DNA of 64,000 nt from Patescibacteria group bacterium (GTDB taxonomy: Bacteria; Patescibacteriota; Patescibacteriia; Magasanikbacterales; GWA2-37-8), in assembly GCA_004321885.1 (NCBI GenBank), contig SCQK01000013.1, positions 64,001-128,000 on the forward strand, written 5' to 3'. Position 1 is the stretch's first letter, and each line of letters starts with the position of its first letter. This document shows, one piece after another, positions 11,320 through 24,379 of this stretch. The notes under the pieces are model-generated. The model was not told the origin of the DNA. It did no database searches and worked only from the letters and a program-made list of their open reading frames with translations. The translations under genes and the position numbers were made by a program.

Positions 11320-12828
11320 TCAAATTCTCCTCACCACCCCTTTATACCCATCCACCTCCAACCAATCCCCATCTTTCACCACCTCGCGCACAAACCTGGT
11401 TTGTATTACTCCCGGAATTTTGGCTTCCCGCGCAAGCGTGGCCGGGTGCGTCGTAATACCATGCCCGCCATCGCAAACCAAACCTGCCGCTTTCATAATA
11501 GCTGTGGAGAAACTGGGTACCACTTGAATACTGACGATAATATCTCCCTTCTGCACTTTATCGCATTCATCGGGATGCAAAATTACACGCGCTGGCCCCT
11601 TGGCGACTCCGGGCGAAACCGGCATACCGGTAAACTCTTTAGCGTTCTTATCTACTTTACAGAAAAGATTAAACAATCTTTCGGCCTGACTTCTCTCAAC
11701 TATCTTCATTGGCTGTCCGCGCCGACAATACCACAACATCAGTTCTATCCTTTCGTTAATATCAAAAGATAATTCTTTTCCTTTGATCAAAGCCGTTCTT
11801 ATCTCTTCTATTTTTAAGTGCCTGACCTGATTCAGACTCAAATAGAATCTGCGGCCAATCTCTTTCAAAACGCTATCAAAATAATACAAAGATTCGGAAA
11901 CGTAGCGCTTGCGCAATTCTTTCAAGTAAGCCACATGGCGCATGGAATTGAAAGAATCTTGTTCTTGCTTGCTGAAGTTCAATCTGGCCAAATATCTCTT
12001 TCTTTCGCTTTCATTTTTAGCCAAGTTACCGACCAATTTCTCATATTCCTTCCTCACATTGAGTATGAGATAGCCGGTCAAACGTTGAACTATCGATCTA
12101 AAATCCAAAACGGAGTCTTCGTAATCACGCGTTACCCAAAAATAATTTCTTTCATGCTTCCTTATAAGATTACTAAGTTTAGAATCTTTTTTAATGGCGT
12201 CTATATCTTTGGTTGTGACCAGAGAAACCCAATGTTTATCGGCTAAAATCCTTAACGCCAATTCAAACAACGCCTTCAATTCAACAGTCGCCACCATGGC
12301 GCTGGGTTCGCGCGTTAAAATGTCCAAAACTACCGCGGCCTTCCTTTTGTCCGCCACTTTGCCTTCCACCATACGTAGCAGGTCGGCGATATAATGGTCT
12401 TCCGTAATCCAAATCCATCCGTACCGAGCGTACACCTCTTTGTATTTTTTTTCATAATCAGCGAAAAATTCGTACAATGTCTGATTGCTTATTCTTTCTA
12501 AATTAGAATTGCCTGCTTTCTTGGCAAAAGCCACTAAACGCGCACCGTAGATATGCTGTTCTTTAATGAACTTGCCGACCAATTTTGAATCATAATGAAT
12601 TTTATCGGACATGTCGCGAGCAACCTCTTCGTAACCCTTCCTACCAATAAACATGTAGTGTACGTTATGCGTGCAAAAATAAAGTACCTCTCCGAGGGCA
12701 AAGCCGACGGCACTTTTCATCTCATTGCAGACAGCCTCCATTGAAAAATAATTAGGAAACGGACTGACGCGTTGGCGTTGAGACTTAAATACCCAGTGGT
12801 CGATATCCGTTGAAAATTTAACTGGCAT
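11320..12828 (-). CDS. Paralog 1: unknown N-terminal domain (about 390 aa) fused to a C-terminal PEP-utilizing swivel domain (variant His loop)
   Basis: C-terminus MPVSPGVAKGPARVILHPDECDKVQKGDIIVSIQVVPSFSTAIMKAAGLVCDGGHGITTHPATLAREAKIPGVIQT...GDWLEVDGYKGVVRRI aligns with the other paralogs. N-terminus has no PPDK_N motifs. Confidence 0.7.
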   Translation of the reverse strand: MPVKFSTDIDHWVFKSQRQRVSPFPNYFSMEAVCNEMKSAVGFALGEVLYFCTHNVHYMFIGRKGYEEVARDMSDKIHYDSKLVGKFIKEQHIYGARLVAFAKKAGNSNLERISNQTLYEFFADYEKKYKEVYARYGWIWITEDHYIADLLRMVEGKVADKRKAAVVLDILTREPSAMVATVELKALFELALRILADKHWVSLVTTKDIDAIKKDSKLSNLIRKHERNYFWVTRDYEDSVLDFRSIVQRLTGYLILNVRKEYEKLVGNLAKNESERKRYLARLNFSKQEQDSFNSMRHVAYLKELRKRYVSESLYYFDSVLKEIGRRFYLSLNQVRHLKIEEIRTALIKGKELSFDINERIELMLWYCRRGQPMKIVERSQAERLFNLFCKVDKNAKEFTGMPVSPGVAKGPARVILHPDECDKVQKGDIIVSIQVVPSFSTAIMKAAGLVCDGGHGITTHPATLAREAKIPGVIQTRFVREVVKDGDWLEVDGYKGVVRRI

Positions 12829-12858
12829 AATTAACTGATAAAAATTTATTCAATTCTT

Positions 12859-14082
12859 TTAAATTTTTCTCACAATCCCTTTCTCCGCGTCCACCTCCAC
12901 CATATCGCCGTCTTTTAAAACCTTAGTCGCGATTTTCGTGCCGATAATACAAGGTATACCTAACTCACGGCTGACGATGGCAGCATGCGCGGTTAACCCT
13001 CCCTCGTCGGTCACGATAGCGGCCGCCTTTTTGACCGCCGTTATCAACGACGGCGTGGTCATGGATGAAACTAAAATATCACCCTTCTGCATCTTGACCT
13101 GATCTTCCCGCGTGATAACAATTTTGACCTTGCCGCGCACCTTTCCCTTGGATGCCACGAAGCCAATAATTTTATCCACCACCGCTGTTTTGTCTTCTTC
13201 AAAATAAAGCTTAAAATAATTCTGCGCCTTTTCGCCGCTTAAAATTTTTAATTTTCTCCGGCTGATCAGCAATATATAAAATTGTTGGCGGCGTTTCATT
13301 TCGCTTTCGGGCATTTTCTTGCCACCCAAATAATCGCGCAAGCTGACCGGATCGTACCAATCCAATTCAGCCAATTCTTTTTCGTTGTTGATGACCTTTC
13401 GCAAATGATCTAATAGCTGATCGTAAAGATAAGACGACACTCTTTCCCCCATTTCGTAAAAGTAAGTGAACCATGATAAAATTTCCGCAAGCTCTTTTTC
13501 TTTGGCGGTTAATTTTAGCCGTCGTGCAAGATCCTCTCTTTTTCTAATCAATCGCGGACTAGAACAATGCAATTGGTTTAATAGCCCGACAACCGCTTTC
13601 GGCACTGATAAAGTTGATAAGACATCGTCCAGCTCGCGCGCCGATACTTTCGCCGCCAGTAATTTTTTCAGCCGCTGTGCAACAGACTGCTCACCCCAGT
13701 AGCTATAGACAATAGCGCCACGCCCATAAGCGTGATATTTCATGAACAAACTGATGTAACTCCTCAAATCTTTGCGGGTCAAATTTTTATTCTCGTACTT
13801 TCTGCCCCAGTTATAACCTTGGATTAGCAACTTAACTATAATGTCACCCAAACGAGAAATATTTTTCCCTTTAAATTCTCGCAGAATAATTTTCTGCTGT
13901 CTTTTTTTGTCCGCGGGGTCAAAGTATAACGAGGTAACTCTGCCGCGGCCGACAATCGGACTTCTGGCTATTTTCGCCCGCCCAAATTTACCAATGCTCT
14001 GCGCATAAGCAATGGTGCGAAATCCGCGATCAAGCAAAGTATTTTCACGTGTTAATTGTTTGACGTATTTGACTTTGGACAT
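12859..14082 (-). CDS. Paralog 2: unknown N-terminal domain (about 300 aa) plus C-terminal PEP-utilizing swivel domain
   Basis: ...GKVKIVITREDQVKMQKGDILVSSMTTPSLITAVKKAAAIVTDEGGLTAHAAIVSRELGIPCIIGTKIATKVLKDGDMVEVDAEKGIVRKI. Confidence 0.75.
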   Translation of the reverse strand: MSKVKYVKQLTRENTLLDRGFRTIAYAQSIGKFGRAKIARSPIVGRGRVTSLYFDPADKKRQQKIILREFKGKNISRLGDIIVKLLIQGYNWGRKYENKNLTRKDLRSYISLFMKYHAYGRGAIVYSYWGEQSVAQRLKKLLAAKVSARELDDVLSTLSVPKAVVGLLNQLHCSSPRLIRKREDLARRLKLTAKEKELAEILSWFTYFYEMGERVSSYLYDQLLDHLRKVINNEKELAELDWYDPVSLRDYLGGKKMPESEMKRRQQFYILLISRRKLKILSGEKAQNYFKLYFEEDKTAVVDKIIGFVASKGKVRGKVKIVITREDQVKMQKGDILVSSMTTPSLITAVKKAAAIVTDEGGLTAHAAIVSRELGIPCIIGTKIATKVLKDGDMVEVDAEKGIVRKI

Positions 14083-14239
14083 AAATTAAAGCTTCCCCAT
14101 AACCCCCTTTAATATAGAACCCCGAAATTTGACAAATAACGTGCACATGTTATACTGATTATGGAATTGATACCGCTTCAAATAGTCCCGTTTATCGGGG
14201 CGTCCCGCAAGGGTAAGGAGCGGTATTTTTGTTTTACTC

Positions 14240-14869
14240 CTATTTCGGCCATCTTTGCACCCAAATCTCTTTGTCTGCCACGTATTTATAATAATTCGTC
14301 CAATCCTTTTTATTTTGAACTTTTCTGCTGACAACGCCGGTGATGTAATCAGCTACCTGCAGCAAATTATTTGATTTTGAACGCTGTTGTTTTAATTTTT
14401 TTATAACTTTCTTCCCGTTCGTATTTAACCGAACGCGCAAATATTTGGCAAGACGGCTGCGAAAATCCGGCGAACCTGACTTATCAAGTATTACTGTGGC
14501 GTTATTCAAATGCGGAAGCGCGTTGTTAAAAACCATCTGGCAGGCGTATTTGTAAAACGATTCTTTGGTGATAAAACCTGGCCCCCACAATTTATTTGGG
14601 TCTTTGTCTATCACGACTGCGAAGTATATAAAGCGATACGGCTGGATGGCCGATAAAAATCTTTCTTTTATCTTATCCGAATTAAAAGAAAAATGAAATT
14701 CAAAATCGGACGGCAAATCAAGCTCTTTTCGCAATAAATTAATCCGTTGGTCGCAAGATAGGGCGTCTTCATTGTCATCAAAAATAACCAAAGAAATTAT
14801 AAAATATCTGCTGGAACCGGATTCTGTTTTACGGCCGGTATCGCCGGCTTCATCTATAAAGACGAGCAT
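14240..14869 (-). CDS. DUF3800 family protein
   Basis: MLVFIDEAGDTG... start and LLQVADYITGVV motif are characteristic of DUF3800; it sits inside the paralog array. Confidence 0.6.
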   Translation of the reverse strand: MLVFIDEAGDTGRKTESGSSRYFIISLVIFDDNEDALSCDQRINLLRKELDLPSDFEFHFSFNSDKIKERFLSAIQPYRFIYFAVVIDKDPNKLWGPGFITKESFYKYACQMVFNNALPHLNNATVILDKSGSPDFRSRLAKYLRVRLNTNGKKVIKKLKQQRSKSNNLLQVADYITGVVSRKVQNKKDWTNYYKYVADKEIWVQRWPK

Positions 14870-14879
14870 AACTGTTAAT

Positions 14880-16361
14880 TCAAATTTTCTTCACAATCCC
14901 CTTTGTCGCATCCACTTCCACCATGTCGCCGTCTCTGAAAACCTTAGTGGCGATTTTCGTGCCAATCACGCAGGGAATACCGAGTTCGCGCGAGACGATA
15001 GCCGCATGGCAGACAATGCCGCCCATATCAGTAACTATCGCCGACGCCTTTTTCATGGCCGCCACGATTTCCGGTATGGTCATTTCCGAAACCAACACAT
15101 TTCCACTTACCATTTTTTTCATATCCTCTATGGTATTTACAATCGTTACTTTCCCTTTGGCCGCGCCCGGAACCGCGGTTTGCCCCCGCAGTTCTTGAAC
15201 TGATAAATCCACTTCTTCCTCACGAGCCATATTCATTTTTGACATTACGTATCTCGCTTCTTCGCCAACAATAAACTTGGATCCATTGGCGTCCACATAT
15301 AGTAAACTATATTTCCAACGTTCATTTAATTCATCCGCGTCGCACTGCCCGCTTCTAATCGCAGAAGGAACTTCTTGTGGCAAAAAATATCGCGCTTGAC
15401 GAATTGAAATAAGCAATCTTTTTGCTACTTCCCGCAGTATTTTATCAAGCGCATAAAATCCTAAAAATTGGTGCTCTTTGCTCCATGCCTTTTGATAAAC
15501 AAGGTCTTTGGTAACGCGAAATAAATGCTTGTGTTTTTCATCAATTTTTAAATTATCAAACCAGGCGTTTTGTTTTTTTTCAGCTTCAAAAAACTGATTT
15601 TTCTGACGCAAAATTTCTTGCTCAATATCGGTCCCAGCTTCTATAATCTCCTGAATATGCTTTACCACATCCTTCTCTGTCCAAGTCGGCCCTTCACAGG
15701 CAAAGGGCAAAAAACAATACTTCCGCGCATGCGCCGCAATTTTTTCCTCCCCAACGGATAATTGAATTTTGCCTTCCACAACTTCCTTCGCCAGCTCATA
15801 AAGTTCCAAATGTTCCTGTGTACCCAAAGCCGGCTTTGTCAGCGTGAGTAAATCAGCCAAAACAAGAACGGCATCTATATCAGGATTAAACTTTTTTAAA
15901 TAGTTCAATAAATATATTCCTAATTGTTCAAACGGAATTTCCAAAAGCCAACTCGGAACACGATATAAGTGTAATTCCGTCTGTAACGGCAACAGTTGTT
16001 CGTAAATTCGCGCGAGTTCTTCGTTGGATAACTTTGATAAATCACTCTCAATAATTTTCCAGGCATAATTTCTAAGCTGCGGTAAAATTTTATCTGATTT
16101 TACATGCATATCATCAATGAGCCGGGGATTTTCCACAATTGCTTCTAAAGTTTTTTTACCGGCCACTATCCATTCATTGCGAATATAGAATAACTTTGTC
16201 GCGCCGTTTTCATACAAAGGAAGGCTGTGTGCCACATCGGCAAGCCCCAGCTTGCTCAATTCGCTTGTCATGGCGCGAAAAGGCGGCTCCAATGTAATGG
16301 GAGGATACTGATACAACTTCTCAATCATTATCCATTCTTTTCTTAACAATTCTTCATTCAT
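14880..16361 (-). CDS. Paralog 3: unknown N-terminal domain (about 390 aa) plus C-terminal PEP-utilizing swivel domain
   Basis: ...GAAKGKVTIVNTIEDMKKMVSGNVLVSEMTIPEIVAAMKKASAIVTDMGGIVCHAAIVSRELGIPCVIGTKIATKVFRDGDMVEVDATKGIVKKI; 4-nt overlap with paralog 4. Confidence 0.75.
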   Translation of the reverse strand: MNEELLRKEWIMIEKLYQYPPITLEPPFRAMTSELSKLGLADVAHSLPLYENGATKLFYIRNEWIVAGKKTLEAIVENPRLIDDMHVKSDKILPQLRNYAWKIIESDLSKLSNEELARIYEQLLPLQTELHLYRVPSWLLEIPFEQLGIYLLNYLKKFNPDIDAVLVLADLLTLTKPALGTQEHLELYELAKEVVEGKIQLSVGEEKIAAHARKYCFLPFACEGPTWTEKDVVKHIQEIIEAGTDIEQEILRQKNQFFEAEKKQNAWFDNLKIDEKHKHLFRVTKDLVYQKAWSKEHQFLGFYALDKILREVAKRLLISIRQARYFLPQEVPSAIRSGQCDADELNERWKYSLLYVDANGSKFIVGEEARYVMSKMNMAREEEVDLSVQELRGQTAVPGAAKGKVTIVNTIEDMKKMVSGNVLVSEMTIPEIVAAMKKASAIVTDMGGIVCHAAIVSRELGIPCVIGTKIATKVFRDGDMVEVDATKGIVKKI

Positions 16362-17836
16362 ATTTTTCTCACAACCCCACTTGTCGCGTCAACCTTCACC
16401 ATATCGCCGTCTTTGAGTACGGAAGTGATTTTTTTCACGCCCACCACGCAGGGAATTTTAAATTCGCGCGCCACAATGGCCGCATGGCAAGTGATGCCGC
16501 CGTCCTCCGTCACGATAGCCGAGGCGCGTTTCATAGCCGGCAACATCGCCGGATAAGTCGTGAGCGCCAACATAATATCTCCTTTTTCCACCTTATCCGC
16601 GTCTGTTAACGATAGAACAACTTTTACTTTGCCTGAAACAAAACCCGGATACGCGGTGGCGCCCTTAAATCCGTCTTCAACATTTAATTTTATTTCTTCA
16701 ATATCCAAGCCGGCTATAATCGCGTCGGCCTCTTTGCCGTAATAATACTTTGTTCCGCTTTCAGTCGCTTCAATCACGCAATGCTTAATTCTCTCATTTA
16801 TTAAATCAATGTCCAATTTGTCACGCAATAGAGCGTTTTCCATTTCGTCCGTCAAAAAATGATTCGCTTGTTTATGCGATATATTCAATCGCTTGGCAAT
16901 TTCTTTGGTGAGCATGTCCAAAACATAGTGCCCATGCCAAATACAATATTTTCTGAGATCCTTAAGCCAAATAATCTCGCGGGCGATGGCGAACAATCGC
17001 GCGAGCTGCGGGGGCAAGTTGATTTCGGAAATTACTTTATTTTGTTCCGCGATGAGTTTCTCGTAGCGTTCTTTTTCTTCTTTGAGCATTTGGTCCGGGT
17101 CAGTTACGCGAGGCAGGGCTTCCTTAACCTGCTCTTCATAATATTTCAAATCATAAGCCGGCCCGATATAGCCGTATGGCGTCCAGCGCCATTTTTGCCA
17201 ATGCTTTGTTATTAATTCTTTGTACTGGATTCCCGCTTTCGCGGGAATGACAACGGCCTTAAGCAACTCCAAAAAATCCAATTGCTCCAACTGGACAAAA
17301 TTCTGTTTAGCCGGAGTGGTAAGCAGAACAAAATATTCTATTGTTTTTACCGGATCATCTATGCCTAAACTTTTTAAATGTTCTCCTAATTTTTGCTTTA
17401 AATACTCCGAAAAAATCATGCCGTCGCTGTCCACAAACCAAGTGGTGGCGATTGATGGAAGATGACCTTGCTCGGTAAGCCATAAAAGCGTTTTGTAGTA
17501 ATCAAAAAGCTCGGCATTGTTTAGCGCGCCAAAATCTTTTCCCACCAAACTTTGAGCGTAATTAAAATAATCCCAATTTAATTTTTCGGTTCGCGCATGC
17601 AATTCCTCTGCCCACTGCGGCTCGGTAATAATTTTTTCCGCAATCCATTTCACCGTCGTTTCTATTACTTCAACCGGCACATACGCCGTATCCCTGTCGT
17701 TTCTATAATCTTGATACCAAACAGTAAATAATTGTTTGCCATTCTTTTTTGGAATATGCGCAAAAATCCCTTGGGGGTAATAGCCCAGCATGTTAAAATT
17801 CACGTCGCGGATATCAAAATTTATTCGCCATTTCAT
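16358..17836 (-). CDS. Paralog 4: unknown N-terminal domain (about 390 aa) plus C-terminal PEP-utilizing swivel domain
   Basis: ...ATAYPGFVSGKVKVVLSLTDADKVEKGDIMLALTTYPAMLPAMKRASAIVTEDGGITCHAAIVAREFKIPCVVGVKKITSVLKDGDMVKVDATSGVVRKI. Confidence 0.75.
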   Translation of the reverse strand: MKWRINFDIRDVNFNMLGYYPQGIFAHIPKKNGKQLFTVWYQDYRNDRDTAYVPVEVIETTVKWIAEKIITEPQWAEELHARTEKLNWDYFNYAQSLVGKDFGALNNAELFDYYKTLLWLTEQGHLPSIATTWFVDSDGMIFSEYLKQKLGEHLKSLGIDDPVKTIEYFVLLTTPAKQNFVQLEQLDFLELLKAVVIPAKAGIQYKELITKHWQKWRWTPYGYIGPAYDLKYYEEQVKEALPRVTDPDQMLKEEKERYEKLIAEQNKVISEINLPPQLARLFAIAREIIWLKDLRKYCIWHGHYVLDMLTKEIAKRLNISHKQANHFLTDEMENALLRDKLDIDLINERIKHCVIEATESGTKYYYGKEADAIIAGLDIEEIKLNVEDGFKGATAYPGFVSGKVKVVLSLTDADKVEKGDIMLALTTYPAMLPAMKRASAIVTEDGGITCHAAIVAREFKIPCVVGVKKITSVLKDGDMVKVDATSGVVRKI

Positions 17837-17838
17837 AT

Positions 17839-18882
17839 TTATCCGAAGTAGTTTTTCACCGCGAATTCAAATTGCTGGACAAATAATTCCTTAAAGTAGC
17901 GCAAACTATTTTGTTCGTAAAATAAAAGCAACGCCTTCTTGTATTCGGCGCTATCAACGCTTCTAAACGACAAAGGACACCAGTCATGCGCCAAGAGAAT
18001 CGCATTGCCCAAAATTCTGCCTGTTCTTTTATTTCCATCCACGAACGGCTGAATATATGAAATCATCGCCGCCGCGATTATGGCCTTGATTATCGGTTGC
18101 TCCTCTGTATTTACCGCGGAAATCATTTTTTCCATCGCTTCTTTTATTTGGAATTGGTTGTCTATCGGCTTATAATTTGTGCCGACAATACCCACTACAA
18201 TCTTCCTGTAATCATCCGTCACGCCCAAATCTTTTATCAACAAAGAATGCAGGGCGCGTATCAGCGCGGCGGTCGGTTTCTTGAATTTATTTTTATTTTT
18301 CAAAACAAAATCAAGCGCGTATTTATGATTCAATATCATCGTCGCCTCCGCTTTAGTGTGCCCTTTCGCCTCTTTCATTTCCTTTAACAATACTTCCGTA
18401 TCCAATAACGAATAAGTATTACCTTCAAGTTCAGATGATTTCCAGCTCAATTCAATCAAAAGTCGCTCTAATTCTTTTTGAGCGACATCGACCGCCATTT
18501 TGTCTGTTTTTTGTTGATACGCCTTGTTGCGCTTTTCTAAATCTTTTAATTCTTCCTTGTTAAACAAGCCGGATAAATGGTCAAAAATTTCCCAGTCAAA
18601 TCTGTATTTTATTTTTCTTTCATCCACCGGAACCGCAAAATAATCCGCGGCATTAACATAACGCAGAAGCGGAGTTTTAATTTTTGACGAATATGTGACA
18701 CTGCGAGCCTTGCCTCTCTTTTCTATCTGTCCGATCGAGAGTAAAATTTCCAATTCACGCAGGATTGTCGGTTTTGACAATCTGTCAAATTTACCCGCTA
18801 ATCCTTTAATAAGTTCGGCCGCTGTTACCTGTTCATTAGCCTGTACAAATTCCAAAATCGCTTTTTGACGTTTTGTAAGCAT
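17839..18882 (-). CDS. Fic/DOC family protein with N-terminal winged-HTH; the core motif is degenerate (QPFVDGNKRTGR instead of HPFxDGNGRxxR)
   Basis: MLTKRQKAILEFVQANEQVTAAELIKGL... (wHTH); ...AAAMISYIQPFVDGNKRTGRILGNAILLAH carries Gln where the catalytic His belongs and Lys in place of the second Gly. Confidence 0.7.
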   Translation of the reverse strand: MLTKRQKAILEFVQANEQVTAAELIKGLAGKFDRLSKPTILRELEILLSIGQIEKRGKARSVTYSSKIKTPLLRYVNAADYFAVPVDERKIKYRFDWEIFDHLSGLFNKEELKDLEKRNKAYQQKTDKMAVDVAQKELERLLIELSWKSSELEGNTYSLLDTEVLLKEMKEAKGHTKAEATMILNHKYALDFVLKNKNKFKKPTAALIRALHSLLIKDLGVTDDYRKIVVGIVGTNYKPIDNQFQIKEAMEKMISAVNTEEQPIIKAIIAAAMISYIQPFVDGNKRTGRILGNAILLAHDWCPLSFRSVDSAEYKKALLLFYEQNSLRYFKELFVQQFEFAVKNYFG

Positions 18883-18984
18883 ATATTATAGGCAGAGCAT
18901 ATAATTTTATCGGCCTCGCAAACCCGAATAGAATCGGGTTTGTCTCGGCCTTAATAAAATTATTGTCTCATTTTTATAGTTTAA

Positions 18985-19003
18985 TTGTATCATAATGATA
19001 CAA
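18985..19003. promoter_or_regulatory. Perfect 19-bp palindrome TTGTATCATAATGATACAA upstream of the Fic gene (candidate operator)
   Basis: Read directly. It lies in the Fic promoter region about 100 nt upstream of its ATG and just downstream of mnmA. Confidence 0.35.
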
Positions 19004-19004
19004 T

Positions 19005-20186
19005 TCAAGCAATCACTCCCCCGCCCAAACATTCACCTTTAAGATAAAATACCGCGAACTGACCCGGGGTGACGGCGCGTTGGGGGTGAGTGAAAGTAAC
19101 TAAAGGGAGGGAAACAGTGCATCTCTGCAAAGGTTGACGGTGACGCAGGCGCACCTGGCATTTTAGCGGGAAATTGGGTGTGTTTCCACTTATCCAATTT
19201 ACGTCTTTGACCCTTGCTTCCATACTGTACAGCATATCGCTTTTCTCGTCGCCGACAATCAGTTCGTTCTTTTTTATATTCTTACCGACAACAAAGAGAG
19301 GCAACGCGCTGGATTCCCCCGTACTTAGTCGGGGGAATGACAAACTGATACGTTGGCCGATGGTGTAAAACGCCAGGCCATCGTGCTGGCCCACGACTTT
19401 ACCCCTCTCTCGCCACCGCCGCGAGGCGGGGCCCCGCCGTGGCGGTGGCTCTCCCCTTGTAAAGGGGAGAGAGAGCACTATGTTCCCGGGTTTGAATTTT
19501 ATCTTTTTCATCAAAAATTCTTTCATCGGCACTTCGCCGATGAAACAAATGCCCATGCTTTCTTCTTTTTCCGCCGTGGGCAAGCCGAATTTTTTTGCCA
19601 GGGCGCGCACCTGTGGTTTGGCATACTCACCGATGGGAAACAAAACGTGGCGCAGTTGTGCTTGAGATAATTGATTCAAAAAATATGTTTGGTCTTTATT
19701 GAGATCTTTTGACTGCAAGAGGTGCAGAACCCCACCCCCCTTTCGTTCCCCCTTTATTAAGGGAGGAAGAAACGCGTAGTGTCCAGTCGCTAATTTATCA
19801 AACCCTAACGCACGGGCTTTATCCAGCCAGGCGCCAAACTTGATGAATTTATTGCACAAAACATCCGGATTGGGCGTGCGGCCGGCCTTGTACTCGCTAT
19901 ACATGTAATCCAAAACATCGCGCTTGTATTTGCGCGTAAAATCCAGCTTCAAAAGTTTAATGCCCAGTTTGGCGGCCACGCGCAAGGCGTCGCGATAATC
20001 GCCGGTCCAACAGCGCGATCCCACCCCCCCTTCGCCCCCCCCTCTGGCATGAGGGGATATTTTCTCATCATAGTTCACCATGAACGCGCCGCTTACGTTA
20101 TATCCTTGCTTAACCAAAAGAGCGGCGGCAACGGACGAATCCACGCCGCCGGACATGGCGACTAAAATTTTTTGCTTTTTTTTCAT
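19005..20186 (-). CDS. mnmA: tRNA-specific 2-thiouridylase MnmA, carrying four in-frame palindromic-element inserts
   Basis: ILVAMSGGVDSSVAAALLVKQGYNV (PP-loop), GRTPNPDVLCN, NKDQTYFL, GLPTAEKEESMGICFIG. Non-homologous inserts ISPHARGGGEGGVGSR, PPLIKGERKGGGV, LPFTRGEPPPRRGPASRRWRERGKVVG and SLSFPRLSTGESSA map onto elements at 20022-20057, 19736-19776, 19395-19475 and 19311-19341. Confidence 0.85.
   Translation of the reverse strand: MKKKQKILVAMSGGVDSSVAAALLVKQGYNVSGAFMVNYDEKISPHARGGGEGGVGSRCWTGDYRDALRVAAKLGIKLLKLDFTRKYKRDVLDYMYSEYKAGRTPNPDVLCNKFIKFGAWLDKARALGFDKLATGHYAFLPPLIKGERKGGGVLHLLQSKDLNKDQTYFLNQLSQAQLRHVLFPIGEYAKPQVRALAKKFGLPTAEKEESMGICFIGEVPMKEFLMKKIKFKPGNIVLSLPFTRGEPPPRRGPASRRWRERGKVVGQHDGLAFYTIGQRISLSFPRLSTGESSALPLFVVGKNIKKNELIVGDEKSDMLYSMEARVKDVNWISGNTPNFPLKCQVRLRHRQPLQRCTVSLPLVTFTHPQRAVTPGQFAVFYLKGECLGGGVIA
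19311..19341. repeat. Palindromic element, family A (reverse orientation), in frame in mnmA
   Basis: ggattcccccgtacttagtcgggggaatgac is the reverse complement of the alaS copy. Confidence 0.7.
19395..19475. repeat. Compound palindromic element, family D type (…CTCTCCCCTTGTAAAGGGGAGAGAG), in frame in mnmA
   Basis: cccctctctcgccaccgccgcgaggcggggccccgccgtggcggtggctctccccttgtaaaggggagagagag; nested inverted repeats. Confidence 0.6.
19736..19776. repeat. Palindromic element, family D type (CCCCCTTTATTAAGGGAGG), in frame in mnmA
   Basis: ccacccccctttcgttccccctttattaagggaggaag. Confidence 0.55.
20022..20057. repeat. Poly-C/poly-G palindromic element in frame in mnmA
   Basis: cccaccccccccttcgccccccccctctggcatgagggg. 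Confidence 0.5.
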
Positions 20187-20200
20187 AACAATATAATACC

Positions 20201-20236
20201 ACACAAAACAAAAACTGCCAGCCTTGCGGCCGGCAG
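20201..20236 (-). terminator. Terminator hairpin CTGCCAGCCTTGCGGCCGGCAG with a minus-strand T-run, downstream of the zinc-ribbon gene
   Basis: Inverted repeat 20215-20236; RC of 20201-20214 is TTTTTGTTTTGTGT. Confidence 0.55.
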
Positions 20237-20253: not shown

Positions 20254-20565
20254 TTACCTATCGCGCCTGGCCCGCAGACATTCTCTGCAGTAAACCGGCT
20301 TGTCGCCGGTGGGCTGGAAGGGCAACTCGGTGATCTTGCCTCCGCACTGGGCGCAGGTCAAGTCCACCTGGTACATCTGGCGCGGAGCGCCAAACGAGCG
20401 TCCGCCGCCGCTCGGGCGGGTCTGGCGGTACGCGCGATTGCATTCATTGCAATACACGGGTCTGTCGCCGGACGGCTGGAAGGGCAGCTGTGAAATATGG
20501 GTCCCGCATTTGCCGCAGGAAAGGTCCACATCGTACATCTGCCTAGTGCTGTTGTCAAAAGCCAT
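20254..20565 (-). CDS. Small tandem zinc-ribbon protein (two CxxC-x17-CxxC repeats) in a high-GC islet
   Basis: QMYDVDLSCGKCGTHISQLPFQPSGDRPVYCNECNR and QMYQVDLTCAQCGGKITELPFQPTGDKPVYCRECLR form an internal duplication. Local GC far above background. Confidence 0.55.
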   Translation of the reverse strand: MAFDNSTRQMYDVDLSCGKCGTHISQLPFQPSGDRPVYCNECNRAYRQTRPSGGGRSFGAPRQMYQVDLTCAQCGGKITELPFQPTGDKPVYCRECLRARRDR

Positions 20566-20984: not shown

Positions 20985-21245
20985 ATGGAGGTAATTTTAT
21001 ATTATATTTACAGTAAAAAACTGAATAAATACTACTTAGGAAAAACCAATGATTTGGAGCGACGTTTTATAGAGCATAATAACGGTGAAGAAATTTTTAC
21101 CAGAACTGGTATTCCATGGAAATTAGTTGGATTTATTAAAGCCAGCGCGAAGATAATTAGTAAATTAGAGTATAAACTAAAAAAAGCAAAAAATCCAAAA
21201 TACGTTTATTGGTATTTCAATCAACACGGAACTGTATTGGAATAA
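20985..21245 (+). CDS. Small GIY-YIG nuclease (COG2827/YhbQ-Slx1-like) nested in the tRNA-Asp locus
   Basis: MEVILYYIYSKKLNKYYLGKTNDLERRFIEHNNGEE... matches GIY-x10-YLG-x-T-NDLERR-x3-H-N of the GIY-YIG (URI) domain; 86 aa. Confidence 0.7.
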   Translation: MEVILYYIYSKKLNKYYLGKTNDLERRFIEHNNGEEIFTRTGIPWKLVGFIKASAKIISKLEYKLKKAKNPKYVYWYFNQHGTVLE

Positions 21246-21412: not shown

Positions 21413-24379
21413 CTATTTAACCGAGAACAAAGTAAACCAGCCGAGCATCTCGTCAAAGGTTTTTTTGTCGCCAGAAATTTCTATGATGTTTTTGGATTTT
21501 TTGAAACCTTGGGGATAAAGCTCCATTAATTTTGTGCCGTCGGCGCGAGTATAAATTTTGGCCGGAATATTTTGCCATACAGTTGTGGTAGACGAACCGG
21601 ACAGAGAACCCCCGGTCGCCTCAGGCGACCTCGGGATGACAGCTGAGGCTATTATAAACCGGCTTAACTTATCGGCCGACTGAAAACGCACCACCTTGTC
21701 CCCGTGCTCCACTGTCCAGGCCGCCGGATATTGCAAAGTAAACCGCGCGAAAGAATCCTCGCTGTACAAACTCTTGGGCTGTTCGCTTTCCCGCTTGCGA
21801 ATCTCGGCCGCCAGCTGTTCCAGCTGCGTTTTCAATTTTCCGGTTTCTTCCACGATGGCTTTTTTCACGTTTTCGTTCACAATCTGATTATTGGGCTGGC
21901 AGGCGTAGCCGCCCAGCGTGGAAAGCAAACCCACCACGCCAAAAATCAACAACAATTTCGTAGCCGCCGCTATTTTTATAATGGCGCCTTTTTTGGCCGA
22001 AACTTTTTTCTCCAGCCCGGCCACCCGCTCGCGCGCCTTTAGCACCGTGTCCGGATTAAGCGAAATGCTGTCTATCCCCTCTTGCACCAAAAAATCGGCG
22101 AACTCGGGATAGTCAGAGGGCGCCTGACCGCAGATGCCCACCTTGCGTCCATACTTGTGCGCCGTGGAAATCACCTGTCGTATCAAAGTTTTTACGGCCT
22201 CGTTTCTTTCATCATACACATGGCTCACCAAAGCGCTGTCGCGATCAACACCTAGGGTCAACTGGGTTAAATCGTTGGAGCCGATGCTAAAGCCGTCAAA
22301 AATCTGGCTGTACTCTTTGGCCAAAATCACGTTGGAAGGAATCTCGCACATCACGTAAACTTTCAAGCCAGACCCCTCACTAACTCTCCCCTTATAAAGG
22401 GGGGAGGAGCTTCCTCGCTCCAATCCGAATTCTTTCATCACAGCCAGCACCTTTTTTCCCTCGGCCACGGTGCGGCAAAACGGCACCATCACGATTATAT
22501 TTTTCAGCCCCCACTCTTCACGCGCCATTTTCAATGCCGCGCATTCCAGCCTAAAACCGGGCTTGTAGGCCGGGTCATAATAGCGCGAAGCCCCGCGCCA
22601 GCCCAGCATGGGGTTTTCTTCTTTGGGCTCGTACAAATGCCCGCCGATAAGCGTGGCGTATTCATTGGTTTTGAAATCAGACAAGCGCACAATAACATCG
22701 CGCGGATAATACGCGGCCGCGATAAAAGCGATGCCCTCGGCCAGCTTGTCCACGCAGTACCGGGCCTTGTCTTTGTAGCCGATGGTCAGCTCGTCAATTT
22801 TGGCTTTCAATTCCCGGTCCGCCAATTTTTTGTAATTTACCAAAGCGAGCGGATGGATTTTTATAAAATTGGTGAAAATAAATTCCTCGCGCGCCAGGCC
22901 CACGCCGTCACTGGGGATATGCGACAAAGCAAAAGCGCTGCCCGGGTCGCCCACGTTCATCATTATTTTGGTGCGGGTTTTGGCAATGGCTTTTATTTCC
23001 TGTTTTTCTATTTCAAAAGGCAGGCGCCCTTTGTACACATAACCGGCCTCGCCCTCGGCGCAGGAAACAGTCACTTCCTGCCCGGGCTTCACAATCTGAC
23101 GCGCCCTGGCCGCGCCCACCAGGCACGGCGTGCCCAGCTCGCGGCTGACAATAGCCGCGTGCGAGGTCTTTCCCCCCTGCTCCGTGACAATGGCCGAGGC
23201 AATGCGCATTATCGGCTCCCAATCCGGGTCCGTAATGCGCGTAATCAAAACTTCGCCTGGCCGAAAGCTCTTCATCTGCCTGGGCGAGTTTATTACCCGC
23301 GCTTTGCCCTGACCGATTTTTTGCCCGATGCTGATTCCCTCCACCAAAACTTTGCCTTTTTGTTTCAAATGGTACTGCTCTATTACATTTATATTGTCGC
23401 GCGAACGCACTGTTTCGCTGCGCGCCTGCACGATATAGAGTTTTCCGCTCCGTCCGTCTTTGGCCCACTCTATATCCATGGGCCGCTGGTAATGCTCTTC
23501 TATTTGCATGCCCCACTTGGCCAGTTGCAAGACTTCGTCCGGGGAAACGCAGAACCGGTGCTGGTCCGGCATTTTTACTGTTTCCTGCCTGGTGCCTGTT
23601 TTTCCGTAAACAAGTTTTACTTCTTTGCTCCCCAGCCGCTTGCTGATGATTGATTTCAATCCGCGCCGAACCCCATCTTTGAAAACAAAAAACTGGTCCG
23701 GTATCACCCGGCCCTTGACCACATATTCGCCCAAGCCATAAGCCGCGTTTATAAGCACCACGCCCTTAAAACCCGACTCGGTGTCCAGAGTGAACATCAC
23801 GCCGCTGGCGCCCAAATCCGAACGCACCATTTCCTGCACGCAAACCGAAAGCGCCACAGCCGCGTGGTCAAAGCCCTTGTCCACGCGATAGGAAATGGCG
23901 CGGTCCGTAAAAAGAGAAGCAATACATTTCTGGCAGGCTAAAATAAGTTCATCGGCGCCGACGACATTCAAATAGGTTTCCTGCTGGCCGGCAAAACTGG
24001 CGTCGGGCAAATCCTCGGCCGTGGCCGACGAACGCACGGCCACTGAACTCTTGCCCAATTCTTTATACGCCGCTTTCAATTCATCTGCTATTATTCCTGG
24101 AAACTCGGCGCTTAAAACCATCTGGCGAATCTTGGCGCCGGCCGCGGCCAGCGATTTCACGTTTTTGCCGTCGGTCTTGTTTAGAATTTCTTTTATTTTT
24201 TTATCCAATTTGTCCTCACGCAAAAAAAGCCGGTAGGCGTCGGCAGTAAGAGCGAACCCGTTTGGCACGGCCACTCCATTGGCAGTCAAATTATTATACA
24301 TCTCGCCCAGCGACGCGGTCTTGCCGCCCACGCTGGGAATGTCTTTGATGCCGAGTTCCTTAAACCAGCGGATATACAT
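21413..24379 (-). CDS. PEP synthase / pyruvate-phosphate-dikinase-like enzyme (PPDK_N + swivel His domain + PEP-utilizing TIM-barrel) with an about 200-aa C-terminal extension containing a TM helix; one in-frame palindromic insert
   Basis: VGGKTASLGEM, VRSSATAEDLPDASFAGQQETYLN, GGKTSHAAIVSRELGTPCLVG, MCEIPSNVILAKEYSQIFDGFSIGSNDLTQLTLGVDRDS, RKVGICGQAPSDYPEFADFLVQEGIDSISL. Then IIKIAAATKLLLIFGVVGLLSTLGGYA (TM) and a further 190 aa. Insert SPLYKGRVSEG comes from the element at 22373-22405. Confidence 0.8.
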   Translation of the reverse strand: MYIRWFKELGIKDIPSVGGKTASLGEMYNNLTANGVAVPNGFALTADAYRLFLREDKLDKKIKEILNKTDGKNVKSLAAAGAKIRQMVLSAEFPGIIADELKAAYKELGKSSVAVRSSATAEDLPDASFAGQQETYLNVVGADELILACQKCIASLFTDRAISYRVDKGFDHAAVALSVCVQEMVRSDLGASGVMFTLDTESGFKGVVLINAAYGLGEYVVKGRVIPDQFFVFKDGVRRGLKSIISKRLGSKEVKLVYGKTGTRQETVKMPDQHRFCVSPDEVLQLAKWGMQIEEHYQRPMDIEWAKDGRSGKLYIVQARSETVRSRDNINVIEQYHLKQKGKVLVEGISIGQKIGQGKARVINSPRQMKSFRPGEVLITRITDPDWEPIMRIASAIVTEQGGKTSHAAIVSRELGTPCLVGAARARQIVKPGQEVTVSCAEGEAGYVYKGRLPFEIEKQEIKAIAKTRTKIMMNVGDPGSAFALSHIPSDGVGLAREEFIFTNFIKIHPLALVNYKKLADRELKAKIDELTIGYKDKARYCVDKLAEGIAFIAAAYYPRDVIVRLSDFKTNEYATLIGGHLYEPKEENPMLGWRGASRYYDPAYKPGFRLECAALKMAREEWGLKNIIVMVPFCRTVAEGKKVLAVMKEFGLERGSSSPLYKGRVSEGSGLKVYVMCEIPSNVILAKEYSQIFDGFSIGSNDLTQLTLGVDRDSALVSHVYDERNEAVKTLIRQVISTAHKYGRKVGICGQAPSDYPEFADFLVQEGIDSISLNPDTVLKARERVAGLEKKVSAKKGAIIKIAAATKLLLIFGVVGLLSTLGGYACQPNNQIVNENVKKAIVEETGKLKTQLEQLAAEIRKRESEQPKSLYSEDSFARFTLQYPAAWTVEHGDKVVRFQSADKLSRFIIASAVIPRSPEATGGSLSGSSTTTVWQNIPAKIYTRADGTKLMELYPQGFKKSKNIIEISGDKKTFDEMLGWFTLFSVK
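22373..22405. repeat. Palindromic element, family D (reverse complement of 8143-8175), in frame in the PEP-synthase-like gene
   Basis: cccctcactaactctccccttataaagggggg. Confidence 0.7.

What the first reader, a model, noticed from the sequence alone, without database searches (positions are those of the whole stretch)
17839..18882. Fic-family protein whose catalytic histidine is replaced (QPFVDGNKRTGR)
The ORF has the Fic core at the expected place but reads IQPFVDGNKRTGRILGNAILL. Established knowledge: the Fic motif is HPFx[DE]GNGRxxR, and the His is the catalytic base for AMPylation and related transfers. Here His is Gln and the second Gly is Lys. The protein also carries an N-terminal winged HTH and sits at the head of the swivel-domain array, just after a 19-bp perfect palindrome. 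It may be a regulatory or pseudo-enzymatic Fic rather than an active AMPylase.
Basis: partly seen in the sequence, partly recalled or inferred. Interest (0 to 1): 0.5.

Follow-up and report, generated by a model that had tools for sequence, protein, structure and literature searches.

The report
Self-repressing Fic protein lacking catalytic histidine
This gene encodes a DNA-binding Fic-family protein whose catalytic histidine is a glutamine throughout a large, horizontally spread bacterial clade, and which very probably switches off its own promoter through a conserved palindrome; what its altered active site does is still unknown.

Summary
ORF 17839-18882 (-) encodes a 347-aa protein with an N-terminal winged HTH and a class II Fic domain. 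Its motif QPFVDGNKRTGR aligns residue for residue with HPFIDGNGRTSR of FICD.

The Gln is not an artefact. All 120 closest homologues, every intact member of 150 representatives at 50% clustering, and 80 of 81 genomic loci carry Gln plus Lys. Gln is encoded by both CAA and CAG. The other phosphate- and metal-binding residues and the inhibitory SxxxEGN helix are invariant.

The Gly-to-Lys change is the known Doc-type variant. A Gln clade, Qx[F/Y]x[D/E][G/V]NKR, was already flagged in silico in 2015 and never characterised.

It is conserved upstream of orthologues in many phyla, in two types that co-vary with the recognition helix. I therefore read the protein as an autorepressor.

No gene partner is conserved family-wide. 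In close CPR relatives the gene repeatedly heads swivel/PPDK_N gene arrays, as it does here.

Whether the Gln-Fic domain is a nucleotide sensor or a non-canonical enzyme cannot be decided computationally.

The parts
17839..18882 (-). wHTH-Fic(Gln) gene, 347 aa
   Evidence: ORF. Pfam Fic E=2.8e-16. AF2 model pLDDT 93, pTM 0.88. Foldseek top hits are FICD/HYPE, BT_2513, CdFic and SoFic, probability 1.0. An identical protein in NCBI is named 'cell filamentation protein Fic [Patescibacteria group bacterium]'.
18685..18882 (-). N-terminal winged helix-turn-helix (residues 1-66); recognition helix about residues 37-49
   Evidence: AF2 secondary structure is H-H-H-beta-beta. Weak Pfam hits to Penicillinase_R, FUR and HTH_11. 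Homologues carry precomputed PF03965, PF08220 or PF01726 hits. The helix sequence co-varies with operator type.
18418..18438 (-). Inhibitory-helix motif S149-S-E-L-E153-G-N155, class II [S/T]xxxE[G/N]
   Evidence: Aligns with FICD TVAIEGN, which includes Glu234. SSx[IL]EG is present in 119 of 120 homologues. E153, G154 and N155 are invariant.
18016..18051 (-). Fic active-site motif Q278-P-F-V-D-G-N-K285-R-T-G-R289
   Evidence: Coordinates; alignment to FICD HPFIDGNGRTSR; invariance.
18983..19005 (.). Operator O1: 23-bp palindrome AATTGTATCAT-T-ATGATACAATT (minus-strand reading)
   Evidence: unique in the window. Conserved upstream of orthologues: TAWCA-N1-7-TGWTA in 29 of 80 loci against 0.017 expected per locus. 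The strict type-1 site is in 29 of 80 against 0.009 per locus. Aligned in 9 loci.
18984..18992 (-). Putative extended -10 element TGATACAAT, inside the right arm of O1
   Evidence: Read directly from alignment A3. The consensus scan tool did not call this promoter, because the -35 matches only 3 of 6 positions.
19007..19012 (-). Putative -35 element TTGCTT, 17 nt upstream of TACAAT, inside the 3' end of mnmA
   Evidence: Read. Relatives have TTGCAA, TTGACA or TTGCCT at the same spacing. Inference only.
18962..18974 (-). Second site O2: half-site AAAATGAGACAAT about 10 nt downstream of O1
   Evidence: Conserved column block in alignment A3 of 9 loci; coordinates.
18895..18969 (-). Long stable hairpin in the 5' leader, present only in this window
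   Evidence: RNA fold dG -35.6 kcal/mol, z = -7.4, with 0 of 200 shuffles folding as well. Absent from the 8 aligned relatives, whose ATG follows O2 directly. Its core is unique in the window. Function unknown.
11320..17836 (-). Downstream array of four PEP-utilizers (swivel) paralogues plus DUF3800, probably co-transcribed with the Fic gene (2-nt gap)
   Evidence: Pfam PF00391 at E=2.8e-12 to 2.1e-26 in four ORFs. The same Fic-then-swivel or PPDK_N order occurs in relatives P0032, P0008, P0014 and P0005, with different upstream genes. The link is lineage-specific, not family-wide.

Best explanation
The gene encodes a one-polypeptide, self-repressing DNA-binding protein. Its N-terminal winged HTH, presumably as a dimer, binds the palindrome O1 (and O2). 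O1 occupies the spacer and the extended -10 of the gene's own promoter, so expression is held down by negative autoregulation. In this genome and in close CPR relatives, whatever lies downstream in the operon (the swivel-domain array) shares that control. The C-terminal domain is a class II Fic fold. It keeps the metal-binding Asp, the anion hole, both Arg residues and the intramolecular inhibitory Glu. It has Gln instead of the general-base His and a Doc-type Lys instead of the second Gly. I therefore take it not to be a canonical protein AMPylase. I read it as a phosphate/nucleotide-binding module that senses a ligand and modulates DNA binding, that is, a Fic-derived sensor domain. Status of each step: shown are the substitution, its clade-wide conservation, the fold, the operator's conservation and its covariation with the recognition helix. 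Strongly inferred are DNA binding and autorepression. Inferred only are ligand sensing and the absence of transferase activity.
For: Substitution and fold. Clade-wide purifying selection on Gln and on the rest of the site: and 72 (CAA 40, CAG 39). Operator: it is unique in the window. Type 1 sites (NNNTNNCA-N3-5-TGNNANNN, 8-nt arms) occur upstream in 29 of 80 loci against 0.009 expected per locus. Type 2 sites (GCTCA-N14-15-TGAGC) occur in 15 of 80 against 0.0007. The recognition-helix motif (A/S)TxKR is found in 15 of 15 type-2 loci and 0 of 29 type-1 loci (Fisher p = 4e-12, not corrected for phylogeny). Within type 1, CCTATCA pairs with S(T/V)PTLNRDL and CGTAACA with (S/T)KMTITRDL. In 9 loci whose proteins are only 54-62% identical, the noncoding block TTG-17 nt-TACAAT with O1 and O2 is conserved. 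Even plasmid relatives at about 30% identity carry repeats of AATCGTTTCA or AATCTTGTCA upstream. Precedent: the Fic-HTH protein CccR represses its own promoter through palindromes (PMC9755527), and HTH-Fic fusions were predicted to autoregulate (PMC2686095). His is the catalytic base in characterised Fic enzymes, for example CccR H192A is inactive (PMC9755527).
Against: No conserved regulated partner gene exists across 80 loci, and only one operator is present in 64 kb. A protein that regulates only itself needs some other function, which favours an effector or enzymatic role for the Fic domain. Retention of the inhibitory Glu, the metal-binding Asp and both Arg residues is what one expects of a still-regulated catalyst. 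The cited in-silico survey (PMC4454073) notes that a His-to-Ala mutant of IbpA kept some AMPylation activity. One natural family member has His at this position (L076). No binding or activity data exist. The promoter elements were read by eye, and the consensus scan did not call them.
Confidence: 0.55

Rival explanations
1. The Gln-Fic domain is an active enzyme with non-canonical chemistry. Candidate activities are a Doc-like kinase using inverted ATP, a hydrolase or de-modifying enzyme using the conserved Glu-positioned water, or a transferase to a nucleophile that needs no general base. It would act as a tightly autorepressed, self-inhibited toxin or effector module that spreads horizontally, like a single-gene TA or defence element.
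For: Every active-site residue except His is invariant, including the inhibitory or catalytic Glu153. The Doc-type Lys at position 8 forces inverted ATP binding in Doc (PMC4177925). The distribution is patchy across at least 8 phyla at 45-60% identity, including plasmids next to integrase, relaxase and T4SS genes. The gene is stand-alone with its own operator and no conserved partner, the architecture of autoregulated toxins such as CccR (PMC9755527). The best PADLOC hits are SoFic and PDC-S04. Some relatives sit next to Doc/MazE, other Fic genes or HsdM. PMC4454073 argues that the clade may not be catalytically dead.
Against: Gln cannot act as a general acid or base, and no Fic or Doc enzyme characterised so far works without the His. 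Few of the 124 nearest neighbours hit defence models, and most neighbours are housekeeping genes. No close homologue occurs in 50,697 phage records. The family is common in reduced CPR genomes.
Confidence: 0.3
2. In this lineage the protein is the dedicated regulator of the downstream swivel-domain/PPDK_N phosphotransfer genes. Its Fic domain would sense their substrate or product, for example ATP, AMP, PPi or a phosphorylated metabolite.
For: The Fic gene directly precedes swivel or PPDK_N genes in the window (2-nt gap), P0032/L001, P0008 (6 nt), P0014 (17 nt) and P0005. The upstream flanks differ in each: mnmA, a swivel gene, AAA_14-DUF4143, AdoHcyase. The linked proteins fall in at least two branches of an NJ tree. 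O1 and O2 sit at the head of the unit.
Against: Only 2 of 81 species-level loci show the link. It is absent in P0003, P0004, P0023, P0030 and P0034. Inherited synteny among related CPR genomes rich in swivel paralogues could produce it. Family-wide conservation of the protein cannot be explained by a lineage-specific target.
Confidence: 0.2
3. The Gln is a sequencing or assembly error, or the gene is a decaying pseudogene.
For: None beyond the formal possibility of a single-base error (CAG versus CAC/CAT).
Against: Gln is present in 80 of 81 independent loci and in all 120 closest homologues, with both synonymous codons. The ORF is full length, the model has pLDDT 93, and 66 columns are invariant.
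Confidence: 0.01

Closest known systems
Clade D2 of the Fic/Doc survey by Khater & Mohanty 2015 (PMC4454073), motif Qx[F/Y]x[D/E][G/V]NKR
   Same: The His-to-Gln and Gly-to-Lys signature is the same. The G/V alternative at position 6 is seen here too, in plasmid relatives with QAFxDVNKR. It is bacterial only, and no experiment exists.
   Different: D2 was described from 45 sequences as a Doc sub-clade of 'usually single-domain' proteins. Here the proteins have a full 8-helix class II Fic core with an inhibitory helix, a flap, a final Arg and a fused wHTH. The clade is much larger, with 242 clusters at 50% identity at E<=1e-30. Identity of the two groups is inferred from the motif, not tested on their sequences.
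FICD/HYPE and bacterial class II Fic proteins (CdFic, EfFic, BT_2513)
   Same: These are the best sequence and structure matches (E=1.4e-8; Foldseek probability 1.0, TM about 0.6). They share the N-terminal inhibitory helix [S/T]xxxE[G/N] and the motif residues D, G, N, R and R.
   Different: They use His as acid/base for AMPylation and deAMPylation, have Gly at position 8 and have no wHTH. Identity to them is only about 18-20%.
Doc toxin (Phd-Doc)
   Same: Lys at motif position 8, which in Doc inverts ATP and makes it a kinase (PMC4177925). Expression logic is also comparable, since the module's own DNA-binding element represses the promoter.
   Different: Doc keeps His, lacks the final Arg, has a 6-helix core without a flap, and needs the separate antitoxin Phd. 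Here the TIGR01550 DOC_P1 score is 17.2 against a cut-off of 38.65, and no partner gene is conserved.
CccR of Yersinia pseudotuberculosis (Fic + HTH; PMC9755527)
   Same: A Fic protein fused to a DNA-binding domain that represses its own promoter through palindromes near -35/-10. The inhibitory S/E pair contacts the motif Arg.
   Different: In CccR the HTH is C-terminal, His192 is catalytic, it AMPylates FtsZ and it is a T6SS effector. The domain order is reversed here and the His is absent.
SoFic (Shewanella Fic; single-gene anti-phage system)
   Same: A stand-alone Fic protein with a wHTH. It gives the best PADLOC hit (1.3e-19) and a Foldseek hit to 3eqx/3zcn.
   Different: SoFic is an active AMPylase with His and has a C-terminal wHTH. 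The NCBIfam SoFic equivalog scores 22.6 against a cut-off of 550, so this protein is not a member.
Enzyme-derived sensor domains in one-component regulators (e.g. NrtR Nudix-like, ROK repressors); analogy from general knowledge
   Same: A DNA-binding domain is fused to an enzyme fold that has lost a catalytic residue but keeps ligand-binding residues.
   Different: Those regulators control adjacent metabolic operons and are mostly inherited vertically. This one has no conserved target other than itself. The resemblance is a lead, not a test.

Membership tests
Fic/Fido superfamily (Pfam PF02661) | Significant match to the Fic domain profile and the Fic fold | tested here: met
   60.6 bits against a gathering cut-off of 24. 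Foldseek probability 1.0 to FICD, CdFic and SoFic.
Catalytically canonical Fic AMPylases | Motif HxFx(D/E)GN(G/K)RxxR with the invariant catalytic His | tested here: not met
   Gln278 aligns with FICD His363. All other motif positions are met: F280, D282, G283, N284, K285, R286, R289.
Class II Fic (intramolecular N-terminal inhibition) | [S/T]xxxE[G/N] helix N-terminal to the Fic core, in the same polypeptide | tested here: met
   S149-S-E-L-E153-G154 aligns with FICD T-V-A-I-E-G and is conserved in 119 of 120 homologues. Whether Glu153 contacts Arg286 in the model could not be inspected, because no coordinates are returned.
Doc toxins | HxFx(D/N)(A/G)NKR without a final Arg; 6-helix core; adjacent Phd antitoxin | tested here: not met
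   Only the Lys is shared. His is absent and the final Arg289 is present. A full Fic core with flap strands is predicted. DOC_P1 scores 17.2 against 38.65. No conserved small upstream gene.
Gln-variant clade D2 (PMC4454073) | Consensus Qx[F/Y]x[D/E][G/V]NKR | tested here: met
   QPFVDGNKR matches. Relatives show QAFADVNKR and QPYSDGNKR. Direct comparison with the paper's 45 sequences was not possible.
SoFic defence system | Equivalog-level similarity to SoFic, catalytic His, C-terminal wHTH | tested here: not met
   NF046030 scores 22.6 bits against a cut-off of 550. Gln replaces His, and the wHTH is N-terminal.
Autoregulatory HTH-Fic proteins (CccR-like behaviour) | Binds palindromic operator(s) in its own promoter and represses it | not testable with these tools
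   Indirect support only: a conserved, co-varying palindrome overlapping the putative -10 and spacer. EMSA and reporter assays are needed.
Winged helix-turn-helix DNA-binding domains | Three-helix bundle plus beta-hairpin wing | tested here: met
   AF2 gives H4-15, H21-28, H37-49, E53-56 and E63-66 at pLDDT about 90. Pfam hits are sub-threshold (Penicillinase_R 20.7 against 22.6), and some homologues pass.

The most novel reading that the evidence does not exclude
The Gln/Lys Fic clade is not a dead enzyme. One possibility is that it is the first Fic-fold ligand sensor, gating a fused repressor. The other is that it is a catalyst with chemistry new to the Fic family, for example Doc-like inverted-nucleotide phosphoryl transfer or Glu-dependent hydrolysis that needs no general-base His. 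In either case the module is mobile across at least 8 bacterial phyla, and in CPR bacteria it is wired to arrays of swivel-domain phosphotransfer proteins.
Probability: 0.3. Interest if true: 0.7.

Novelty: new variant of a known kind. Interest (0 to 1): 0.5.

Why it matters
Fic enzymes are defined by their catalytic histidine. This clade is large and under strong purifying selection: at least 242 clusters at 50% identity, and more than 575 species-level genomes in many phyla. It replaces that His with Gln while keeping every other active-site and inhibitory residue. That poses a clean biochemical question: what does a Fic site do without its base?

The conserved operator that co-evolves with the recognition helix gives a directly testable handle (EMSA, reporter fusions, ligand screens). 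Members occur in cultured Bacteroides and Ferruginibacter and on Proteobacterial plasmids, so experiments do not depend on uncultured CPR bacteria.

If the domain proves to be a nucleotide sensor, it adds Fic to the list of enzyme folds recruited as regulators. If it is active, it extends Fic chemistry. For annotation, 'cell filamentation protein Fic' or 'AMPylase' labels on this clade are probably misleading.

Tried and rejected
1. Frame or sequencing artefact: rejected by clade-wide Gln with both synonymous codons.

2. Conserved partner gene (antitoxin, target, operon mate). All-against-all clustering of 839 neighbouring ORFs in 80 loci found nothing beyond generic response regulators. Pfam on the 124 nearest neighbours gave no family in more than 3 loci. 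The downstream same-strand genes are heterogeneous.

3. Defence-island context: PADLOC on the same 124 neighbours gave only scattered hits (2 RT, 2 PDC-S01, 1 AbiEii, 1 MTase).

4. Phage origin: only 3 weak partial hits at 26-29% identity among 50,697 phage records.

5. Regulon in the window: no second O1-like site within 3 mismatches.

6. Automatic promoter and terminator scan of 18800-19100. It found no minus-strand promoter, because the -35 matches only 3 of 6, and no terminator. The promoter assignment therefore rests on the cross-locus alignment.

7. The small hairpin CAAACCCGA...TCGGGTTTG as a repeated element: it is unique in the window.

8. Literature. No experimental paper on a Gln-variant Fic was found. 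The original Doc kinase paper (PMC3836179) is not held, so the role of the Doc Lys is cited from the review PMC4177925.

9. Inspection of the AF2 active-site geometry (Gln278, Lys285, Glu153 contacts) was not possible, because the tools return no coordinates.

10. Closest His-bearing relatives with the same architecture could not be listed, because searches show only the top 120-150 hits and all of these are the Gln clade. Only one His member (L076) was seen.
Full report
**1. The observation.**
The ORF at 17839-18882 on the minus strand encodes 347 residues. Pfam's Fic model matches residues 204-296 at E=2.8e-16, 60.6 bits against a cut-off of 24. phmmer against all PDB chains puts human FICD first (E=1.4e-8). 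It aligns query ...ISYIQPFVDGNKRTGRIL... with FICD ...LVYIHPFIDGNGRTSRLL....

Gln278 (CAG, 18049-18051) therefore occupies the catalytic-His position, and Lys285 (AAA, 18028-18030) the second Gly. The same alignment places S149-S-E-L-E153-G-N on FICD's T-V-A-I-E234-G-N. That is the intramolecular inhibitory helix defining class II Fic proteins. No other Fic-like sequence exists in the window.

An AlphaFold2 model built from 41 family members is confident (pLDDT 93.3, pTM 0.88). It shows an N-terminal three-helix-plus-wing domain (residues 1-66) followed by an all-helical Fic core with the flap strands. Foldseek against the PDB returns FICD/HYPE, C. elegans Fic-1, BT_2513, CdFic, SoFic and CbFic2 at probability 1.0 and about 16-23% identity. 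No solved structure is closer.

**2. The substitution is a clade signature.**
The protein database holds an identical protein, named 'cell filamentation protein Fic [Patescibacteria group bacterium]', and thousands of relatives.
- Of the 120 best relatives (51-62% identity, 346-372 aa), 119 read Q-x-F-x-D-G-N-K-R-x-x-R and one has Thr in place of the Lys. All but one carry SSx[IL]EG.
- In a search of 1.84 billion representatives at 50% clustering, 242 score E<=1e-30. Of the best 150, 127 have Q...K. The other 23 are mostly truncated fragments; a few are near full length with altered motifs, and none has an intact His motif.
- In species-level genomes, at least 575 loci encode relatives. Of 81 loci examined, 80 have Gln, encoded 40 times by CAA and 39 times by CAG. 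One (L076, a Bacteroidales MAG) has CAC, which encodes His.
- In a 41-sequence alignment, Q278, P279, F280, D282, G283, N284, K285, R286, T287, R289, E153, G154 and N155 are invariant.

This is purifying selection on Gln and on the whole site. It is neither decay nor error.

**3. What was already known.**
The Fic motif is usually written HPFx[D/E]GN[G/K]R (PMC2686095, PMC7479194), so Lys at position 8 is a recognised variant. In Doc it forces ATP to bind inverted and turns the enzyme into a kinase (PMC4177925).

Khater and Mohanty (PMC4454073) reported a 'D2' clade of 45 bacterial sequences with consensus Qx[F|Y]x[D|E][G|V]NKR. They noted that the essential His is replaced by Gln and argued that the clade may not be catalytically dead. 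No experiment followed, as far as the searchable literature shows.

The present protein fits that motif. More distant plasmid-borne relatives (about 30% identity, 430-457 aa) read QAF(A/I)DVNKR, which matches the G|V alternative. HTH-Fic fusions were noted in 2009 and predicted to autoregulate (PMC2686095). CccR, a Fic protein with a C-terminal HTH, has been shown to repress its own promoter via palindromes (PMC9755527).

**4. The palindrome is a conserved operator.**
It extends to 23 bp at 18983-19005 and is unique in the window, with 0 expected by chance.

The same kind of site lies upstream of orthologues.
- The pattern TAWCA-N1-7-TGWTA occurs within 250 nt upstream in 29 of 80 loci, against 0.017 expected per locus from the flanking 783 kb.
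- With a stricter definition (8-nt arms, at most 1 mismatch), type 1 sites occur in 29 of 80 loci against 0.009 expected.
- A second type, GCTCA-N14-15-TGAGC, occurs in 15 of 80 loci against 0.0007 expected. These are mainly Bacteroidota. Further one-mismatch variants bring the total higher.

The operator type tracks the wHTH recognition helix. The motif (A/S)TxKR is present in 15 of 15 type-2 loci and 0 of 29 type-1 loci (Fisher p = 4e-12; shared ancestry is not corrected for). Within type 1, half-site CCTATCA goes with S(T/V)PTLNRDL (3 of 3) and CGTAACA with (S/T)KMTITRDL (3 of 3).

Nine loci whose proteins are only 54-62% identical were aligned. The noncoding DNA keeps a block TTG...(17 nt)...TACAAT. 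Palindrome O1 fills the spacer, and its right arm forms a TG-extended -10. A second element O2 (AAAATGAKACRAT) lies about 10 nt downstream.

In the window these elements are:
- -35 TTGCTT at 19007-19012
- O1 at 18983-19005
- the extended -10, TGATACAAT, at 18984-18992
- O2 at 18962-18974

The promoter hexamers are my reading. The generic scan did not call them. An operator that overlaps the -10 and spacer, and that co-evolves with the recognition helix, is the classic arrangement for autorepression. That is inference; binding has not been shown.

**5. Genomic context.**
Family-wide, the gene stands alone. Clustering all ORFs of 80 loci gave no recurrent neighbour. The 124 nearest neighbours share no Pfam family in more than three loci and are mostly housekeeping genes. 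Few hit defence models.

The taxonomic spread covers Patescibacteria, Bacteroidota, Alpha/Beta/Gammaproteobacteria, Bdellovibrionota, Melainabacteria, Margulisbacteria, Akkermansia and Spirochaetia, at 43-58% identity. There are also plasmid copies next to integrase, RepB, relaxase and T4SS genes. Together these indicate horizontal transfer. Phage records hold no close relative.

In the window the next gene starts 2 nt after the Fic stop, and four PEP-utilizers paralogues follow. The same Fic-then-swivel or PPDK_N order is found in these relatives:
- P0032/L001
- P0008 (6-nt gap)
- P0014 (17-nt gap, with a PPDK_N gene at the end of the array)
- P0005 (Fic, acylphosphatase, PPDK_N)

The upstream genes differ in each case. 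These proteins lie in at least two branches of a rough NJ tree. Other close relatives lack the link: P0003, P0004, P0023, P0030 and P0034. So the array is probably co-transcribed from the autoregulated promoter in this CPR subgroup, but it cannot explain the conservation of the protein elsewhere.

**6. Mechanism.**
Shown:
- a class II Fic fold fused to a wHTH
- Gln for His and Lys for Gly, with everything else in the site invariant
- a conserved palindrome at the promoter that co-varies with the recognition helix

Strongly inferred: the wHTH binds O1/O2 and represses its own transcription.

For the Fic domain two readings remain.
- **(a) Sensor.** Without the general base it no longer modifies protein hydroxyls. 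It retains the phosphate and metal-binding apparatus to bind a nucleotide-like ligand that tunes DNA binding.
- **(b) Non-canonical catalyst or effector.** It would be kept at low level by autorepression and by its own inhibitory helix.

Reading (a) is favoured by the chemistry of Gln and by precedent for enzyme-derived sensor domains. Reading (b) is favoured by three points: there is no regulated target other than itself, the inhibitory Glu is retained, and the distribution resembles that of mobile elements. I put (a) at about 0.55 and (b) at about 0.3. The autorepression component alone I would put near 0.85.

**7. Verdict.**
What this analysis adds:
- the fused wHTH
- the promoter-embedded operator that co-evolves with the recognition helix
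- the size and horizontal spread of the clade
- the lineage-specific coupling to swivel/PPDK_N arrays

The gene is a variant of a known kind (HTH-Fic autoregulators and degenerate-motif Fic proteins). Its biochemistry is an open, testable question.

Noticed in passing
window 11320-17836 (-) and 21413-24379 (-): There are four paralogous 407-502-aa proteins whose only recognisable domain is a C-terminal PEP-utilizers (swivel phospho-His) domain, interrupted by a DUF3800 gene at 14240-14869. Nearby is a 988-aa PEP-synthase-like protein with a roughly 190-aa C-terminal extension. Relatives carry similar arrays together with separate PPDK_N (ATP-grasp) genes, which suggests a split phosphotransferase system with variable substrate modules.
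   Followed up: partly
window 18895-18969 (-): A long imperfect hairpin (dG -35.6 kcal/mol, z -7.4) sits between operator O2 and the Fic start codon. It is absent from eight orthologous promoters, where the ATG follows O2 directly. It has no U-tract and its core is unique in the window. It may be an inserted palindromic element or a leader structure.
   Followed up: partly
L076:2212-3249 (Bacteroidales MAG JBFWIG010000143.1): This is the only family member seen with His at the catalytic position (HPFIDGNKRTSR, codon CAC). It lies within the Bacteroidota sub-group that has type-2 operators. It is either a natural Gln-to-His revertant or a base-call error.
   Followed up: no
L082 (Sulfitobacter plasmid NZ_CP025807.1), L083 (Comamonas plasmid), L084 (Thiothrix plasmid): This is a distant sub-clade (about 30% identity, 429-457 aa) with the same wHTH and Gln-Fic, plus a roughly 90-aa C-terminal extension ending in an LHEGN-like motif. 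The genes sit next to repB, relaxase, T4SS, integrase or restriction genes. Their upstream regions carry three or four direct and inverted copies of AATCGTTTCA or AATCTTGTCA.
   Followed up: partly
L046-L078, upstream of the Fic genes (Bacteroidota loci): A second operator class, GCTCA-N14-15-TGAGC, has half-sites about two helical turns apart instead of adjacent. This implies a different dimer geometry on DNA for proteins with the (A/S)TxKR recognition helix.
   Followed up: partly
L094:2535-3408 and L091:2867-4998: In two close relatives the Gln-Fic gene lies beside other Fic/Doc genes. One has a MazE-like gene plus a 129-aa Doc-like pair. The other has HTH_17, a 142-aa Fic and a 424-aa Fic_N/Fic protein next to the type I methylase HsdM. 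These look like small toxin or defence clusters.
   Followed up: no
window 19005-20204 (-): The mnmA (tRNA 2-thiouridylase) product carries Gly/Arg/Pro-rich stretches, for example HARGGGEGGVGSRCW and GEPPPRRGPASRRWRERGK. These look like insertions relative to the Pfam domains. The putative -35 of the Fic promoter and part of O1 overlap its last codons.
   Followed up: no
window 20254-20565 (-) and 20985-21245 (+): A 103-aa protein made of two treble-clef zinc-finger repeats (PF23477, E=8.6e-27) and a stand-alone 86-aa GIY-YIG nuclease domain protein lie between mnmA and the PEP-synthase-like gene.
   Followed up: no
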